38,727 bases of DNA from the UHGV virus genome UHGV-2005300. One strand, 5' to 3'. The stretch comes from a virus. The notes beneath the pieces were generated by a model. That model made no database searches, was not told the DNA's origin, and saw only the letters and a program-made list of their open reading frames with translations. Made by a program: the position numbers and the translations under genes. Positions 1,758-3,680 of this stretch are shown here, in pieces. Each line of letters starts with the position of its first letter. Within the stretch, counting starts at the first letter, position 1.

Positions 1758-2213
1758 TCAGTAACGCGATGTACTCACCAAACTCGCAAGGCGAATGCCT
1801 GAAGCGGCGCGTGGCTCAGTTACGATCCAGCATTTCAATTTCCTGAGCATCAAGTACAAGCTCCAGCTTACGCATACCGGATGATGCTTGCTTGGCTCTC
1901 TGATCGGCTTTGCGCTCTGCTGATGATTTAGCCATTCTGCTTTTCCTGCATTAGGAGAAAGACAATCATGGCGGCGCGGATACTTCCGGTATCTTTTTAC
2001 GCGATATTCCCCATCCAGAGCACATACAAGAAGAGATCCATCAACAGGAGTGAGTGATGAATCGACCACCAGCAATGCACCCTGCAATATTCCCTCACGA
2101 TGATGGCTACCAGCTGCCCTCAAGAAGTAGGTCGCTGAAGGATGTCTAATTATCTGCTGATCAAGAGAAATACGGCTCTCAGCATAATCCGCCGCAGGAG
2201 AAGGGAAGCCCAT
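1758..2213 (-). CDS. UmuD'-like S24-fold protein (HumD-like, no cleavable N-terminal arm), divergent C-terminus
   Basis: Starts M-GFPSPAADYAESRISLDQQIIRHPSATYF, closely matching E. coli UmuD from its Cys24/Gly25 cleavage site; the reading frame after VKRY no longer resembles UmuD. Confidence 0.6.
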   Translation of the reverse strand: MGFPSPAADYAESRISLDQQIIRHPSATYFLRAAGSHHREGILQGALLVVDSSLTPVDGSLLVCALDGEYRVKRYRKYPRRHDCLSPNAGKAEWLNHQQSAKPIREPSKHHPVCVSWSLYLMLRKLKCWIVTEPRAASGIRLASLVSTSRY

Positions 2214-2231
2214 AATACTCGCCTCTTAATG

Positions 2232-2274
2232 CTGTGTATATATACAGTATATGTTGAAGCTATATATTTTTGAA
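2232..2274 (-). promoter_or_regulatory. SOS promoter: LexA box CTGTGTATATATACAG overlapping -10 TATACT, with -35 TTCAAA
   Basis: CTGT-N8-ACAG consensus at 2232-2247, 19 bp upstream of the UmuD'-like ATG; 17-bp spacer between -35 and -10 (read on the minus strand). Confidence 0.7.
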
Positions 2275-2544
2275 CTCTATCTCTTAAAAAAGATGTTAAT
2301 AAGATGCTAACTATTGAAAGGCATAAATATATACTATTCCAACAAACGTTATTTTTAACAAATTTTTTCTCTCCGTTGACTTTTGCGAAAGCCTTGTCTG
2401 GCCTAAATTGCGCGGAAGCTACTTTTTCCTTCCTGAGTTATCCACAGAGTTATGCACTTGCATGTATAACCTATACACACTATCTTAATTCGCAAGACAT
2501 TGATGTTGCGGTATTGAAGGTTCATTGGGTTAAAAATAGACATT

Positions 2545-2575
2545 AAAAAGCCCAGTTGACTAGGCTGGGCTTTTT
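2545..2575. terminator. Bidirectional intrinsic terminator
   Basis: AAAAAGCCCAG-ttgactag-GCTGGGCTTTTT, with an A-run on one side and a T-run on the other. Confidence 0.55.
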
Positions 2576-2612
2576 AAAAGGAAACAGAGTTTGCGGCTCT
2601 GTTCCTGAGCCA

Positions 2613-2801
2613 TAAGTATCTGGCGACTGAATTAAGATTAACCGAATGTACTGGATTCATCAAGAAACGTTGAGTGGTCATACCAGGTAATAATGACCAT
2701 TTACTAAACATCGTTGTTCTCAAAGAAGATTTAAGTCCAGGTTTTTGGTGACTCTAAAACCTTACCTTAACTCGAAATCGTGCCGTAAGTATCTGGCGAC
2801 T
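2613..2801. repeat. Direct repeats TAAGTATCTGGCGACT (2613-2628, 2786-2801), part of a degenerate tandem duplication
   Basis: Two 16-bp copies; the 2771-2790 segment also resembles the 5' end of the small ORF at 2876. Confidence 0.5.
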
Positions 2802-2875
2802 ACAGATATTGCAACTGCAAAGGCAAGCCCAAAGGTATTTGCAGCTAGGCGCGATAAAACTAAGTGAGGCCTGTT

Positions 2876-2959
2876 ATGGTTAACTTACTGTTCAAAATCG
2901 TGCCGCCGATGTTCGCGATTATCAAAGCGATCATTGAGTACGTAAACCAGCGTCCATAA
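2876..2959 (+). CDS. Small hydrophobic peptide (27 aa, MVNLLFKIVPPMFAIIKAIIEYVNQRP)
   Basis: GAGG ribosome-binding site 6 nt upstream; followed by a GC-rich 8-bp stem hairpin at 2973-2997; opposite strand to the surrounding operon; under the ORF-track length cutoff. Confidence 0.35.
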   Translation: MVNLLFKIVPPMFAIIKAIIEYVNQRP

Positions 2960-3014
2960 CGCTAGTTGCTACAGGCCCCATCAAGAGCATGGGGCCTCTT
3001 TATCGTACTATTGC

Positions 3015-3680
3015 TTATTTTTTACGGACTGAGTTGTTCACTGCTCTGGCAATCTTCTCCCGCAATTGCTGCGTTCCGTGGTACTGAACCGCAATATCCC
3101 TCAACTCGTTCACCAGTTCTCGAATCTGGTGATCTTTAAGCTCATTATTTGGGTGATTGGTAACAACTCTGGTTAATTCACCCTTGTCTTTTGCTCTTAC
3201 GTATGCAGCTCTTGTGCATTCGACCCATGTATTACCGCCTACATTAACTTCGTAGATTAGGCTGGACTTATCTGTCAATTCGGAACAAATACGGGCCGTG
3301 GTCTGGCAACTAGAGCATTCGCAGTTATCGCGGAAACCGTGGTCTACTGGCTTCGGTTTCACATCATCAACTTTTTCTACCCTATTGGAATTTAAATACT
3401 TCGAAGCCTTGCTATGCCAATCGCTGGTTTTAGGATCTTGTCCATCCATCAAACGCCAGGCTTCAGCGATTAACTCATAACTAGTGACTGTAGCTTCCTG
3501 CGCATCACCAATAAGTCGTGTAATCTCTCTTTCAAGCCGACCGCCTAGCTCTGTTTTAGTGCAATGTTCTGACCAATCGCCAGCCTCAAGCAGCGCGAGA
3601 ATGCTTAAAATATCGTCCAATAGAACGGTAGTATTATCGACTTCCTTCTGAAACTCACCGGCTACTGATTTATGCATCAT
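3015..3680 (-). CDS. Hypothetical early protein (221 aa)
   Basis: Long intact ORF coupled (ATGA) to the upstream gene; contains a cysteine cluster DNCECSSCQTTARIC; no family recognised by eye. Confidence 0.7.
   Translation of the reverse strand: MMHKSVAGEFQKEVDNTTVLLDDILSILALLEAGDWSEHCTKTELGGRLEREITRLIGDAQEATVTSYELIAEAWRLMDGQDPKTSDWHSKASKYLNSNRVEKVDDVKPKPVDHGFRDNCECSSCQTTARICSELTDKSSLIYEVNVGGNTWVECTRAAYVRAKDKGELTRVVTNHPNNELKDHQIRELVNELRDIAVQYHGTQQLREKIARAVNNSVRKK

What the first reader, a model, noticed from the sequence alone, without database searches (positions are those of the whole stretch)
2580..3000. Small hydrophobic peptide ORF with degenerate tandem copies, candidate type I toxin-like module
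A 27-codon ORF (MVNLLFKIVPPMFAIIKAIIEYVNQRP) has a GAGG ribosome-binding site and a GC-rich hairpin just downstream, and runs opposite to the surrounding operon in an otherwise ORF-free AT-rich gap. Upstream are two degenerate partial copies of its 5' region (AAATCGTGCCG at 2775 and 2895) and of a 16-bp element TAAGTATCTGGCGACT (2613, 2786). Size, hydrophobicity and tandem decay resemble small membrane-toxin loci with antisense RNAs.
Basis: inference. Interest (0 to 1): 0.6.

Follow-up and report, generated by a model that had tools for sequence, protein, structure and literature searches.

The report
Unannotated small toxin with RNA antidote
This unannotated gap most likely holds a type I toxin-antitoxin module, a 27-residue membrane peptide kept silent by a neighbouring small antisense RNA, built like the known DinQ/AgrB and DqlB/AgrB systems but with a toxin peptide that no current family model recognises.

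Summary
The 27-codon ORF (2876-2959, +), its GAGG site, the downstream terminator and both repeats are all present.

Comparison with about 75 related loci from plasmids, phage-plasmids and prophages of Escherichia, Citrobacter, Enterobacter, Klebsiella and Kosakonia shows a conserved three-part cassette:
- **Antisense RNA.** An RNA of about 83 nt is read from the minus strand (2628 to 2546). It has a conserved sigma-70 promoter, a covarying hairpin and a terminator.
- **Leader.** A structured plus-strand leader (about 2737-2875) displays a 20-23 nt site (2779-2801) complementary to the RNA's 5' end. The site lies in a hairpin.
- **Peptide gene.** The ORF evolves under purifying selection (pN/pS 0.25).

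The RNA's seed and its target have changed together in at least eight lineages.

They are the RNA seed, its target, and an alternative pairing element.

The layout matches DinQ/AgrB and plasmid DqlB/AgrB. A covariance model built from this RNA family finds the true AgrB and AgrA genes. However, the RNA falls below Rfam's AgrB threshold, and the peptides match no DinQ, DqlB or Pfam model.

Verdict: a real, unannotated, divergent variant of a known kind of type I toxin-antitoxin system. Toxicity, the mRNA 5' end and the silencing mechanism are inferred, not shown.

The parts
2876..2959 (+). Toxin-candidate ORF ('type B' peptide): 27 codons plus stop, MVNLLFKIVPPMFAIIKAIIEYVNQRP.
   Evidence: The frame is open in every family member. 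Thirteen distinct 27-codon alleles vary at codon positions 1/2/3 in 13/3/20 sites, with pN/pS 0.245, and the other two frames carry stops. The best 19-residue hydropathy window is 1.85. It is a paralogue of the 'type A' peptide (hhalign probability 94%).
2866..2869 (+). Shine-Dalgarno sequence GAGG, 6 nt upstream of the ATG.
   Evidence: Read from the sequence. A purine-rich site sits at the same position in the leader alignment. It is predicted to be base-paired (unpaired probability 0.03) in the window's full-length mRNA.
2737..3003 (+). Inferred toxin mRNA. The 5' end is tentative; the 3' end is at the terminator.
   Evidence: The leader helices covary and contain 42 G.U cells against 5 A.C cells, so the + strand is the folded RNA. 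The 272-nt fold has a z-score of -3.7. The transcription start is not determined.
2725..2730 (+). Candidate -10 hexamer (GAAGAT) for the toxin mRNA. Tentative.
   Evidence: Every family member listed has a hexamer with A at position 2 and T at position 6 (GAAATT, GAATTT, TAAATT, GATATT or TATATT) at a near-constant short distance upstream of the first leader hairpin. No convincing -35 element was found, and the consensus scan did not report a promoter here.
2739..2762 (+). Leader stem-loop 1 (AGGUUU / AAACCU) with the conserved loop UUGGUGA.
   Evidence: Helix 1 has 6 pairs, 4 of them with changes on both sides, and 94.7% of cells paired. A similar TTTAAGTCCWGG motif followed by a hairpin with a GGUG loop is seen in the dinQ and dqlB leaders (by eye).
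2779..2801 (+). Antisense target ('copy 2'), complementary to the 5' end of the sRNA.
   Evidence: The predicted duplex is -38.5 kcal/mol against -17.4 +/- 2.8 for 500 shuffles. It is the best non-self site in the 38.7-kb window. At least eight seed variants covary with copy 1.
2788..2810 (+). Target hairpin (AGUAUC / GAUAUU). Its loop UGGCGACUACA exposes the complement of the sRNA 5' end AGUCGCC.
   Evidence: Helix 3 has 4 of 6 pairs changed on both sides. The 3' arm covaries with the seed sequence, for example GTTAAC/GTTAAC, GTGTC/GACAC and CACTG/CAGTG.
2777..2784 (+). Element a1 (AUCGUGCC).
   Evidence: It pairs with a' (2848-2855). Helix 2 has 97% of cells paired and two pairs changed on both sides. 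Matched a1/a' variants are listed.
2815..2844 (+). Leader hairpin 3 (CUGCAAA / UUUGCAG) with a 16-nt loop.
   Evidence: All cells are paired, and one pair changes C-G to U-A in Kosakonia loci. This hairpin was the anchor used to collect family members. In the C. freundii loci L003 and L044, its loop (AGGCAAGTGTAAGAGT) resembles that of the dqlB leader hairpin (by eye).
2848..2855 (+). Element a' (GGCGCGAU), between hairpin 3 and the Shine-Dalgarno sequence.
   Evidence: It pairs with a1 in the family consensus. In the window's own minimum-energy fold it pairs with a2 instead.
2897..2904 (+). Possible alternative partner of a'. Hypothesis only.
   Evidence: The a':a2 helix plus pairing of AGUGAGGCC with GGU..CUUACU closes the ribosome-binding site in the predicted fold. 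A contiguous match of 7 nt or more exists only in the window clade and, as CUCGCGC, in loci where ORF A comes first. There is no covariation support.
2973..2997 (+). Rho-independent terminator of the toxin mRNA.
   Evidence: Found by the terminator scan. Different G+C-rich hairpins with T tails follow the last small ORF in the other family members.
2546..2628 (-). Antitoxin-candidate sRNA (AgrB-like, about 83 nt): single-stranded 5' seed, hairpin, terminator.
   Evidence: - The 27 distinct homologues are 92.6% paired, with 9 pairs changed on both sides. The covariation score and the count of doubly changed cells were reached by 0 of 500 shuffles; the count of doubly changed pairs was reached by 45 of 500.
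- Rfam's AgrB model gives a full-length hit of 27.6 bits against a threshold of 40.
- Covariance model R1, built from this family, finds K-12 agrB and agrA and the plasmid agrB genes within a few bases of their annotated or Rfam-matched coordinates.
2635..2663 (-). Promoter of the sRNA: -35 TTGATG (2663-2658), 17-nt spacer, -10 TAATCT (2640-2635), then 6 nt to the start at A2628.
   Evidence: The geometry TTGAWG-17-TAAKMT-6/7-AGTCGCC is kept in all 27 distinct promoter sequences, although the spacers differ.
2580..2605 (-). Hairpin 1 of the sRNA (GGAACAGAG / CUCUGUUUCC, loop CCGCAAA).
   Evidence: Helix 1 has 6 of 11 pairs changed on both sides. The stem and loop resemble AgrB's AGAGCCACCAACUC.
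2543..2577 (.). Bidirectional terminator (13-bp perfect stem), used by the sRNA and by the convergent + strand transcript.
   Evidence: Found (inverted repeat I3). Across the family the G.U pairs favour the minus-strand reading.
2488..2578 (+). 'RNA X': a possible convergent, degenerate paralogue of the sRNA. Whether it belongs to the module is uncertain.
   Evidence: Model R1 scores it at 25.3 bits, E about 4.5e-5. It has a promoter TTGCAT(2458-2463)-17-TATCTT(2481-2486). Its -10 region ATCTTAATTC is an exact inverted copy of the sRNA promoter's (I7). No target for it was found in the window.

Best explanation
The region is a type I toxin-antitoxin module with the divergent, non-overlapping layout of DinQ/AgrB, DqlB/AgrB, ZorO/OrzO and TisB/IstR-1.

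**Components**
- A weakly transcribed + strand mRNA runs from roughly 2737 to 3003. It carries a structured leader of about 140 nt and a 27-codon ORF (2876-2959) for a small hydrophobic, probably membrane-inserting peptide.
- About 100 bp upstream, a strong conserved promoter drives an sRNA of about 83 nt on the opposite strand (2628 to 2546).

**Proposed action**
- The sRNA's single-stranded 5' end (AGUCGCCAGAUACUUAUGGC) pairs with leader nucleotides 2779-2801, about 75-95 nt upstream of the start codon. Pairing probably begins at the GGCGACU loop of a target hairpin.
- The target lies too far from the ribosome-binding site for direct occlusion. Silencing most likely works as in DinQ/AgrB. 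The duplex captures element a1 (2777-2784) and frees its partner a' (2848-2855). That favours a fold in which the Shine-Dalgarno sequence and start codon are closed, and/or creates an RNase III substrate or blocks a ribosome standby site.
- On plasmids and phage-plasmids this would give post-segregational killing, that is, maintenance. In this chromosomal prophage it would stabilise the element or be a carried-over passenger.

**Shown by sequence comparison**
- The sRNA gene, with promoter, covarying structure and terminator.
- The folded + strand leader.
- Seed-target covariation.
- Purifying selection on the ORF.

**Inferred**
- Transcription itself and the mRNA 5' end.
- Toxicity of the peptide and rescue by the sRNA.
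- The structural-switch step.
For: **Conserved cassette**
- The same order of parts is found in about 75 related loci. These come from E. coli, E. albertii, Shigella, Citrobacter, Enterobacter, Klebsiella and Kosakonia plasmids, from IMG/VR viral contigs, and from metagenomes.
- The order is terminator, sRNA, promoter, leader, small ORF(s), terminator.

**The sRNA**
- The promoter TTGAWG-17-TAAKMT-6/7-AGTCGCC is kept in all 27 distinct variants.
- The two-helix structure is 92.6% paired, with 9 pairs changed on both sides. The covariation score and the count of doubly changed cells were reached by 0 of 500 shuffles, and slid controls collapse.

**The leader**
- Four helices are 96.6% paired, with 11 pairs changed on both sides. 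None of 500 shuffles reached the observed value on any of the five measures.
- There are 42 G.U cells against 5 A.C cells, which identifies the + strand as the RNA.

**The interaction**
- At least eight different seed sequences exist, and each matches its own target copy.
- Every mismatch inside the core is copy1-A/copy2-G or copy1-C/copy2-U. These are G.U wobbles only for the pairing of minus-strand sRNA with plus-strand mRNA.
- The 3' arm of the target hairpin covaries with the seed as well.
- The duplex is -38.5 kcal/mol against -17.4 +/- 2.8 for shuffles, and is the best non-self site in the window.

**Coding**
- pN/pS is 0.245, and variable sites fall 13/3/20 across codon positions.
- ATG-to-GTG start changes keep a start codon.
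- Length differences between ORF variants (25, 26 or 27 codons) keep the reading frame.

**Kinship with AgrB**
- Rfam's AgrB model gives a full-length hit at 27.6 bits, E = 0.026.
- Model R1 hits K-12 agrB (24.6 bits), K-12 agrA (22.4) and the plasmid agrB genes (23.7 and 33.7). Each hit lies within a few bases of the annotated or Rfam-matched coordinates.
- An nhmmer profile of the family lands on the agrB position of a dqlB locus (E = 0.007).

**Precedent**
- DqlB/AgrB on pOXA-48 is an experimentally validated addiction module. It has a 35-nt complementarity between the 5' UTR and the sRNA (PMC12365149).
- In DinQ/AgrB, mutually exclusive leader structures and RNase III control translation (PMC5066626).
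Against: - There are no expression data of any kind, so transcription, translation and toxicity are untested.
- No convincing sigma-70 promoter was found for the toxin mRNA. Only a conserved -10-like hexamer is present, with no -35.
- The peptide matches no Pfam, NCBIfam (DinQ, DqlB) or PHROGs model. Profile comparison with DinQ/DqlB gives 7% probability.
- The peptide is less hydrophobic than DinQ or DqlB, and has two lysines and two prolines inside the hydrophobic stretch.
- The sRNA does not reach Rfam's AgrB gathering score.
- In the window's thermodynamic ensemble the ribosome-binding site is closed whether or not the target is blocked. The modelled switch therefore shows no sRNA effect in silico.
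- The a':a2 helix has no covariation support and is absent from several clades.
Confidence: 0.72

Rival explanations
1. Two-sRNA model, a literal copy of the K-12 dinQ-agrA-agrB layout. Copy 2 (2782-2801) would be the 5' end of a second minus-strand sRNA that ends after the hairpin at 2739-2762. The toxin mRNA would start downstream of 2801. The antisense target would be the AAATCGTGCCG element inside the ORF (2895-2905).
For: - Model R1 gives weak minus-strand hits over copy 2 in the window (19.2 bits) and in the other loci (18-23 bits).
- The K-12 locus does have two tandem sRNA genes.
- The 14-mer repeat links copy 2 to the ORF.
Against: - There is no conserved promoter to the right of copy 2, and no T-tract after the hairpin on the minus strand.
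- The helices in this segment carry 42 G.U cells against 5 A.C cells, so the + strand is the one that folds.
- The covarying a1:a' helix spans from copy 2 to beyond hairpin 3, which requires a single + strand RNA.
- All copy1/copy2 mismatches are wobbles only in the sRNA-1-to-copy-2 direction.
- The ORF-internal 11-mer is not conserved in other clades.
Confidence: 0.07
2. The upstream repeats would be decaying tandem duplicates of the toxin gene's 5' end, and control would come from a cis-encoded antisense RNA overlapping the ORF.
For: - Copy 2 plus its flank shares about 70% identity with ORF codons 7-15 over 27 nt (by eye).
- A weak minus-strand promoter-like site lies at 2946-2918 inside the ORF.
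Against: - The repeats hold no ORF remnants.
- Copy 1 lies inside a separately promoted and terminated minus-strand RNA gene with its own covarying structure.
- The copies covary as a seed-target pair, which would not be expected of decaying, unconstrained duplicates.
- The 2946-2918 site is a 9-of-12 consensus match. Four such sites were found against 2.6 expected, so it is at chance level. Its conservation was not assessed.
Confidence: 0.05
3. The cassette is real, but the peptide is not a toxin. It would be a small regulatory or accessory membrane protein of mobile elements whose translation is tuned by the sRNA. Alternatively, the sRNA's main job would be regulating other targets in trans.
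For: - The peptide is only moderately hydrophobic, carries charged residues, and belongs to no toxin family.
- Many small membrane proteins are not toxic at native levels (review PMC12648545).
- The predicted default state of the mRNA is translationally closed.
Against: - The architecture is, part for part, that of validated toxin systems: a strong sRNA promoter against a weak mRNA promoter, a long structured 5' UTR, a distal target and a closed ribosome-binding site (PMC12365149, PMC5066626, PMC5397157).
- The cassette sits beside replication genes on several plasmids, where addiction modules are common.
- The sRNA's best non-self target in the window is its neighbour.
Confidence: 0.13
4. The region is a non-functional relic in this particular prophage. 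The cassette would function on plasmids but be silent or decaying here.
For: - The neighbouring S24 peptidase gene is a pseudogene, with further pseudogenes nearby in the near-identical chromosomal copy.
- 110 of the 143 E. coli places are on plasmids.
Against: - The window's cassette is identical to copies in two IMG/VR viral contigs.
- The 461-bp core is 100% identical to many plasmid copies.
- The promoter, seed, target, Shine-Dalgarno sequence, ORF and terminators are all intact.
Confidence: 0.03

Closest known systems
DqlB/AgrB (plasmid dinQ-like type I toxin-antitoxin; pOXA-48, IncL/M, IncI, IncX; PMC12365149, PMC5066626)
   Same: - The gene order and strands match: an sRNA with 5' seed, hairpin and terminator, then back-to-back promoters, then a long structured 5' UTR with the complementary stretch, then a small ORF of 27-31 codons, then a terminator (searches compared).
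- The sRNA is about 85 nt, and model R1 cross-detects the AgrB genes.
- Short leader motifs are shared by eye: TTTAAGTCCWGG, a hairpin with a GGUG loop, and the loop AGGCAA.TGTAAGAGT.
- The peptides begin M-[IV]-N-L-L.
- Both are found on plasmids and are often left unannotated.
   Different: - The peptide is not recognised by NF041473 or NF041472, and hhalign gives 7% probability.
- It contains Pro-Pro and a polar C-terminus EYVNQRP.
- The complementarity is 20-23 nt rather than 35 nt.
- The sRNA is below Rfam's AgrB threshold (27.6 bits against 40, whereas true DqlB loci score 52-60).
- There is no blastn-level similarity.
- Many members carry two paralogous toxin ORFs in tandem behind one leader.
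DinQ/AgrA/AgrB of E. coli K-12 (PMC3567139, PMC5066626)
   Same: - The layout is divergent and non-overlapping, with direct repeats providing the antisense complementarity.
- The peptide has 27 residues.
- The leader has mutually exclusive pairings, and the ribosome-binding site is closed in the full-length mRNA.
- A second, paralogous sRNA-like copy is present in the locus (AgrA there, RNA X here).
   Different: - dinQ has a LexA box at its own promoter. Here the only LexA box (2230-2249) lies about 490 bp upstream of the leader, in front of the S24 peptidase gene.
- AgrA is in tandem with AgrB, whereas RNA X is convergent and shares the terminator.
- There is no sequence-level similarity in the peptide or the leader.
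ZorO/OrzO and TisB/IstR-1 (type I systems with a distal 5' UTR target or standby site; PMC5397157, PMC11264685)
   Same: - The sRNA is encoded 5' of the toxin gene and divergently from it.
- It pairs far upstream of the ribosome-binding site, about 75-95 nt here.
- In those systems the full-length 5' UTR inhibits translation. Here it is predicted to do so.
   Different: - Rfam's OrzO-P model gives only sub-threshold hits on two family members (34 and 30 bits against 60).
- The peptides are unrelated in sequence.
- tisB is LexA-controlled.
Ldr/Rdl and Fst/RNAII superfamily
   Same: The peptides share a superficial pattern: a hydrophobic N-terminal part with a conserved proline, then an aromatic and basic C-terminus (type A: ...LAHPV..IIMTLLGYWKDR). 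This resemblance is recalled from memory and is only a lead.
   Different: - No Pfam Ldr or Fst model matches at E up to 10.
- From established knowledge: Rdl overlaps the ldr 5' UTR in cis, and par RNA II converges on the toxin mRNA. Here the antisense gene is upstream and non-overlapping.

Membership tests
AgrB sRNA (Rfam RF02891) | The covariance-model score reaches Rfam's gathering threshold of 40 bits. | tested here: not met
   Window 2542-2623 (-) gives 27.6 bits, E = 0.026, as a full-length 1-84 match. No AgrB hit appeared on ten other family members in a joint scan, while true dqlB loci score 51.8-60.1 bits.
AgrB sRNA (Rfam RF02891) | Shared architecture and reciprocal detectability: a 5' single-stranded seed, an internal hairpin and a terminator in about 85 nt. 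| tested here: met
   Model R1, built from this family, hits K-12 agrB (24.6 bits), K-12 agrA (22.4), L048 agrB (23.7) and L049 agrB (33.7). All are full-length hits within a few bases of the annotated or Rfam-matched coordinates, and they rank among the best non-self matches in 72 kb. The window's own RNA X paralogue scores between them, and other terminators score 13 bits or less. This is compatible with distant homology but does not prove it.
DinQ / DqlB toxins (NCBIfam NF041472, NF041473) | The peptide matches the family HMM above its cut-off. | tested here: not met
   None of seven family peptides hit at E up to 10. The DinQ control scores 54 bits. hhalign gives 7% probability for type B against DinQ/DqlB and 0.3% for type A.
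dql (dinQ-like) genes as defined by Kristiansen et al. 2016 | BLAST-detectable similarity to the dinQ 5' UTR, plus signature residues of DinQ. | tested here: not met
   blastn with word size 7 and E up to 1 found no hit between the window and the K-12 locus. Only a 24-nt terminator match (E = 0.016) links dqlB loci to Kosakonia members. The published DqlA sequences could not be inspected, because the figure is not held.
DinQ/AgrB-type locus organisation (T1TAdb class: antisense RNA 5' of the mRNA, non-overlapping) | A divergent sRNA gene upstream of the toxin mRNA, with 20-35 nt complementarity to the 5' UTR. | tested here: met
   The sRNA lies at 2628-2546 (-) and the target at 2779-2801 (+). 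The pairing is 20 nt with one G.U, at -38.5 kcal/mol. Strand assignment rests on the promoter, the terminator and G.U asymmetry.
DinQ proper / TisB (SOS-induced type I toxins) | A LexA operator at the toxin promoter. | tested here: not met
   The only LexA-box match in the window is at 2230-2249, next to the S24 peptidase gene. The distant homologues examined have no annotated S24 gene next to the cassette.
OrzO-P sRNA (Rfam RF02083) / Zor-Orz | The covariance-model score reaches the gathering threshold of 60 bits. | tested here: not met
   The sRNA position scores 34.2 bits in L041 and 29.8 bits in L042. There was no hit on the window.
Ldr and Fst toxins (Pfam) | The peptide matches the Pfam model. 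| tested here: not met
   Five peptides gave no Pfam family at E up to 10.
Hok/Sok | A peptide of about 50 residues with a mok leader ORF, and a Sok RNA overlapping the 5' UTR. | tested here: not met
   The Rfam sok model hits elsewhere in L048 and L004 but never at this cassette. The peptide is 25-30 residues, and there is no overlapping antisense gene.
Type I toxin-antitoxin system (general definition) | A small hydrophobic protein-coding ORF under selection. | tested here: met
   pN/pS is 0.245, variable sites fall 13/3/20 across codon positions, and the frame is open in all members. The best 19-residue hydropathy window is 1.85.
Type I toxin-antitoxin system (general definition) | Overexpression of the peptide is toxic, and the antisense RNA neutralises it by base pairing. 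| not testable with these tools
   This needs inducible expression with and without the sRNA, plus compensatory seed and target mutations.
Type I toxin-antitoxin system (general definition) | A labile antitoxin RNA and a stable toxin mRNA, which is the basis of post-segregational killing. | not testable with these tools
   This needs RNA half-life measurements after rifampicin, and plasmid-curing assays.

The most novel reading that the evidence does not exclude
This would be a previously unrecognised toxin-peptide family of proline-containing peptides of 25-30 residues. It comes in two paralogous types that are often co-transcribed in tandem. It would have been grafted onto an AgrB-like antisense control unit that has diversified into at least eight mutually orthogonal seed specificities. 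It would also run as a three-RNA circuit. In that circuit the convergent paralogous 'RNA X' shares the terminator with the antitoxin and is preceded by two DnaA boxes. RNA X would modulate the antitoxin, as a sponge or by transcriptional interference, and so couple killing to replication status.
Probability: 0.12. Interest if true: 0.7.

Novelty: new variant of a known kind. Interest (0 to 1): 0.5.

Why it matters
- **Annotation.**
  - The cassette is unannotated in all 20 E. coli records listed of the 143 that matched (142 of 5,426 complete genomes) and in about 100 PLSDB plasmids. In the two records with a feature under the match, the feature is an unrelated 'hypothetical protein'.
  - The exact peptide was found under only two entries among about 15 billion predicted proteins, neither with a functional name.
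  - If it works as proposed, it is a maintenance or addiction determinant of SSU5-like phage-plasmids such as pLF82/Cyrano of the Crohn's-associated strain LF82. It would play the same role in phage-plasmid-like replicons of Citrobacter and Enterobacter and in conjugative Kosakonia and Klebsiella plasmids. That bears on plasmid curing and on prophage stability.
- **Evolution of these systems.**
  - It extends the DinQ/Dql-AgrB control architecture to a different toxin peptide.
  - It offers a natural set of covarying seed, target and target-hairpin triplets. These could be used to study how specificity and cross-talk evolve in type I systems.
- **Search methods.** It shows that model-based searches (Pfam, NCBIfam, Rfam at gathering thresholds) miss such loci, while comparative RNA analysis finds them.

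Tried and rejected
**Searches that failed or found nothing**
- **Mis-counted spacer.** My first collection scans used a pattern with the spacer wrong by one base. The single genome-contig scan returned only chance hits. One viral scan and one metagenome scan found nothing. The corrected pattern was checked locally first and then worked. Three of those loci (L053, L071, L077) are chance matches and were dropped.
- **Family models.** Pfam, NCBIfam and PHROGs scans of the peptides gave no hits.
- **Literature.** No paper in the library contains the peptide or seed strings. A search for 'dqlA' gave nothing useful, and the 2016 dql paper has no supplements held.

**Ideas tested and not supported**
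- **Toxin promoter.** Only a conserved -10-like hexamer was found. The TTTACT and TGATT motifs are not at a consistent distance from it.
- **SOS control.** Rejected.
- **Ldr/Fst kinship.** This came from memory and is not supported.
- **sRNA-triggered closing of the ribosome-binding site.** The site is predicted closed with or without the target blocked. The closing helices show no covariation and are clade-limited. I keep this only as a hypothesis.
- **Second tandem sRNA at copy 2.** Rejected on strand asymmetry and the absence of a promoter and terminator.
- **Replication-control antisense RNA.** Rejected, because the PK-repBA elements lie elsewhere in L040 and L045.
- **Target for RNA X.** None was found in the window.
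Full report
**Setting**

The window is a KplE1/CPS-53-type prophage with torI at one end and intS and tRNA-Arg at the other. It is 99.9% identical to E. coli 13C1065T over the 801-bp query, and a tRNA lies at 38655-38726.

The finding lies in an 801-bp gap (2214-3014). The gap sits between a pseudogenised S24/UmuD-like peptidase gene (1758-2213, -) and a 221-codon gene of unknown function (3015-3680, -).

The same gap occurs in 143 E. coli records at identities from about 80% to above 99%. Of these places, 110 are on plasmids and 33 on chromosomes. It also occurs in phage Cyrano, a 108-kb SSU5-like phage-plasmid identical in length to pLF82. No feature is annotated under it in any listed record.

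**The observation**

- The ORF has its ATG at 2876 and its stop ending at 2959.
- GAGG lies at 2866-2869.
- A +-strand terminator-like hairpin lies at 2973-2997.
- G+C is 0.30-0.40.
- The 20-mer repeat is at 2609 and 2782, and the 14-mer repeat at 2772 and 2892.

One correction is needed: the second 11-mer is inside the ORF, not upstream of it.

**Relatives**

Distant blastn against plasmids found diverged copies (68-78% identity) in unannotated gaps. They fall into three groups:
- Citrobacter and Enterobacter replicons of 84-99 kb that are non-mobilizable and resemble phage-plasmids.
- A 261-kb Klebsiella IncFIB plasmid.
- Conjugative MOBF plasmids of Kosakonia.

A pattern taken from the most conserved leader hairpin retrieved 64 further loci from IMG/VR and metagenomes. 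Three of them were chance matches.

All true members share one order of parts:
1. a bidirectional terminator;
2. a hairpin;
3. repeat copy 1;
4. a promoter-like block;
5. a hairpin;
6. repeat copy 2;
7. a second hairpin;
8. a purine-rich ribosome-binding site;
9. one or two small ORFs;
10. a terminator.

**The antisense RNA**

To the right of copy 1, on the minus strand, every member keeps cTTGAWG, a 17-nt spacer, TAAKMT, then 6-7 nt, then AGTCGCC. The spacers differ between members. In the window these are -35 at 2663-2658, -10 at 2640-2635 and a start at 2628.

The transcript would run through a hairpin (2605-2580) and stop at the terminator (2577-2543).

Twenty-seven distinct sequences were aligned. 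They support two helices:
- 92.6% of cells are paired.
- Nine pairs have changes on both sides.
- The covariation score and the count of doubly changed cells were reached by 0 of 500 shuffles. The count of doubly changed pairs was reached by 45 of 500.
- Controls with the partner slid by one to three columns collapse to 32-64% paired.
- G.U cells outnumber A.C cells 54 to 20, which favours the minus strand.

**The leader**

Nineteen diverse + strand sequences running from the first hairpin to the start codon fold into a consensus of four helices.

| Helix | Window coordinates | Note |
|---|---|---|
| SL1 | 2739-2744 / 2757-2762 | loop UUGGUGA |
| a1:a' (long-range) | UCGUGCC 2778-2784 / GGCGCGA 2848-2854 | spans the two helices below |
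| Target hairpin | 2788-2793 / 2805-2810 | loop holds GGCGACU |
| Hairpin 3 | 2815-2821 / 2838-2844 | anchor used for collection |

Support for this fold is strong:
- 96.6% of cells are paired.
- Eleven pairs have changes on both sides.
- None of 500 shuffles reached the observed value on any of the five measures.
- Slid controls fall to 33-43% paired.

G.U cells outnumber A.C cells 42 to 5. A single + strand RNA must therefore cover SL1, copy 2 and the ribosome-binding site. This excludes the idea that copy 2 is merely a second minus-strand sRNA gene.

**The interaction**

Copy 1 and copy 2 differ between lineages but match within each locus. At least eight seed variants exist:
- TAAGTATCTGGCGACT
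- AATGTATCTGGCGACT
- TTGTTAACCGGCGAC
- AATGTATCTGGCAGC
- TATGTGTCTGCCAGC
- AATGTRTCTGGCTAC
- TAAAACACTGGCGAC
- AATGTATCCGGYGACT

The 3' arm of the target hairpin changes with them.

Every mismatch inside the core is copy1-A/copy2-G or copy1-C/copy2-T, at five or more different positions. These become G.U wobbles only if the minus-strand RNA of copy 1 pairs with the plus-strand RNA of copy 2.

In the window the first 26 nt of the sRNA pair with 2779-2801 at -38.5 kcal/mol. Shuffled seeds give -17.4 +/- 2.8, and none of 500 reaches the observed value. The next best non-self site in 38.7 kb is -29.5.

**The ORF**

Across the family there are two peptide types:
- Type B, as in the window: M-V-N-L-L-x-K-I-V-P-P-...-Y-V-N-Q-R-P.
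- Type A: MQMLLLFLKLAHPVxVIIMTLLGYWKDR.

They are paralogues (hhalign 94%, E = 1.6e-7, full length). Some loci have B alone, some have A followed by B with separate ribosome-binding sites, and some have A alone.

Thirteen distinct 27-codon B alleles show 13/3/20 variable sites at codon positions 1/2/3 and pN/pS 0.245. The other two frames carry stops. ATG-to-GTG changes at the start keep a start codon.

The best 19-residue hydropathy window is 1.85. This fits one membrane helix, though a less hydrophobic one than DinQ or DqlB (2.6-2.7).

**What it resembles**

Rfam in permissive mode matched the window's sRNA full-length to AgrB, the antitoxin of DinQ. The score was 27.6 bits against a gathering score of 40.

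The K-12 dinQ-agrA-agrB locus and the plasmid dqlB-agrB loci have the same layout. The dql family is described in PMC5066626. DqlB/AgrB of pOXA-48 was shown to be toxic, to be neutralised through a 35-nt 5' UTR pairing proven by compensatory mutations, and to act as an addiction module (PMC12365149).

Evidence for kinship of the sRNA:
- Covariance model R1, built from my alignment, hits K-12 agrB and agrA and both plasmid agrB genes, full-length. Each hit lies within a few bases of the annotated or Rfam-matched coordinates, at 22-34 bits. Unrelated terminators score 13 bits or less.
- An nhmmer profile of the family lands on the agrB position of a dqlB locus (E = 0.007 in 15 kb).
- By eye, the leaders share TTTAAGTCCWGG followed by a hairpin with a GGUG loop. 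They also share a loop AGGCAA.TGTAAGAGT in the hairpin before the ribosome-binding site.
- DqlB and type B both begin M-[IV]-N-L-L.

Evidence against family membership:
- The sRNA is below the Rfam threshold, whereas true dqlB loci score 52-60 bits.
- The peptides miss the NCBIfam DinQ and DqlB models and all of Pfam.
- hhalign against DinQ/DqlB gives 7% and 0.3% probability.
- blastn finds nothing beyond a 24-nt terminator match.
- There is no LexA box at the toxin promoter.

I therefore file it as working like DinQ/DqlB-AgrB, with an AgrB-like and probably distantly homologous antitoxin, but not as a member of the DinQ/DqlB toxin families.

**Mechanism, and its weak points**

The target is 75-95 nt upstream of the start codon, so direct occlusion of the ribosome-binding site is unlikely.

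AGUGAGGCC pairs with GGU..CUUACU, which buries the Shine-Dalgarno sequence (unpaired probability 0.03). In the leader-only consensus, a' pairs with a1, which overlaps the sRNA target.

This suggests a DinQ-like switch: sRNA binding to a1 would hand a' over to a2 and close the ribosome-binding site. Three results weaken that idea:
- The in silico ensemble is already closed without the sRNA.
- The closing helices show no covariation.
- A contiguous a':a2 match exists in only two clades.

RNase III cleavage of the duplex and blocking of a standby site are equally possible. The toxin mRNA's 5' end is also unresolved. A -10-like hexamer with conserved A2 and T6 (GAAGAT, 2725-2730) sits at a near-constant distance from SL1 in every member listed, but no -35 element is evident.

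**Conclusion**

The evidence for a conserved sRNA, structured leader and small-ORF cassette with a co-evolving base-pairing interaction is strong, and it is entirely comparative. Its identification as a toxin-antitoxin (addiction) module rests on architecture and on precedent.

It is a new, unannotated variant of a known kind. The exact peptide was found under only two entries among about 15 billion predicted proteins, neither with a functional name. No paper in the searchable library contains its peptide or seed sequences.

Noticed in passing
window 2458-2578 (+): 'RNA X' is a + strand unit with promoter TTGCAT-17-TATCTT. It converges on the same bidirectional terminator as the antitoxin sRNA. 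Covariance model R1 scores it at 25.3 bits, and its 5' end AUUCGCAAGACA resembles the seed AGUCGCCAGAUA. The -10 region ATCTTAATTC is an exact inverted copy of the sRNA promoter's. It looks like a degenerate, inverted paralogue, comparable to AgrA. No target was found in the window.
   Followed up: partly
window 2230-2249: A near-consensus LexA box (TGCTGTGTATATATACAGTA) lies in the promoter region of the S24/UmuD-like peptidase gene. That gene is a pseudogene here (1758-2213, -) but is intact in the phage-plasmids. The box lies about 490 bp upstream of the toxin leader.
   Followed up: partly
window 2438-2458: A perfect DnaA box (TTATCCACA) is followed 3 nt later by TTATGCACT. Together they form a tandem 12-bp repeat (GAGTTATCCAC / GAGTTATGCAC) that directly abuts the -35 element of RNA X. 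It is the only perfect TTATCCACA box in the window.
   Followed up: partly
window 2304-2546 (+): An 80-codon ORF fills the left half of the gap and matches phrog_28987, a family of unknown function. The segment 2214-2462 is 81% identical to an unannotated gap of P1-like IncY plasmids. Conservation there comes in fully conserved blocks rather than in a codon-like pattern, so the segment may not be coding.
   Followed up: partly
L114 (NZ_CP012491.1, P1-like IncY plasmid) about 2018-2155: Another unannotated small hydrophobic ORF (MNAFFQFLSAFLDAPIISQILAIILIIVLILLLRSVKNGIMHWLT, 45 residues) lies in the same unannotated gap of the P1-like plasmid.
   Followed up: no
window 1758-3680 compared with L001 (phage Cyrano / pLF82-type) and L002: The gap is 99% identical, and the genes either side of it correspond, between a chromosomal argW-integrated KplE1/CPS-53-type prophage and SSU5-like phage-plasmids of about 110 kb. 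This indicates recent exchange of a module between an integrated prophage and an extrachromosomal phage-plasmid.
   Followed up: partly
L004, L005, L040-L042, L045, L046, L072 and others (downstream of the leader): Many family members carry two paralogous small ORFs (type A, then type B) in tandem behind one leader, each with its own ribosome-binding site. The window and several independent clades have only B, and L003 and L044 have only A.
   Followed up: yes
L040-L042, L052, L056, L072, L095, L102 (between the sRNA promoter and the leader): Repeated GAACNGTT / GGTTTAGAAC motifs and a GGAACC..GGTTCC hairpin occupy the spacer where the toxin promoter should lie. They are absent from the window type, which instead has the hairpin GGTCAT..ATGACC (2677-2699) with a compensatory change in L037.
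   Followed up: no
L060, L113 (otherwise identical to the window) and L038, L039: Natural variants touch the translation signals. The Shine-Dalgarno GAGG becomes GGGG in two metagenomic or viral copies, and the start ATG becomes GTG in several plasmid copies. These may be attenuated alleles.
   Followed up: no
L048 (IncI plasmid) 722-879 and 1503-1945: A classic hok/sok locus and a dqlB/agrB locus sit within 1 kb of each other on the same IncI plasmid. This shows that such plasmids stack several type I systems.
   Followed up: no
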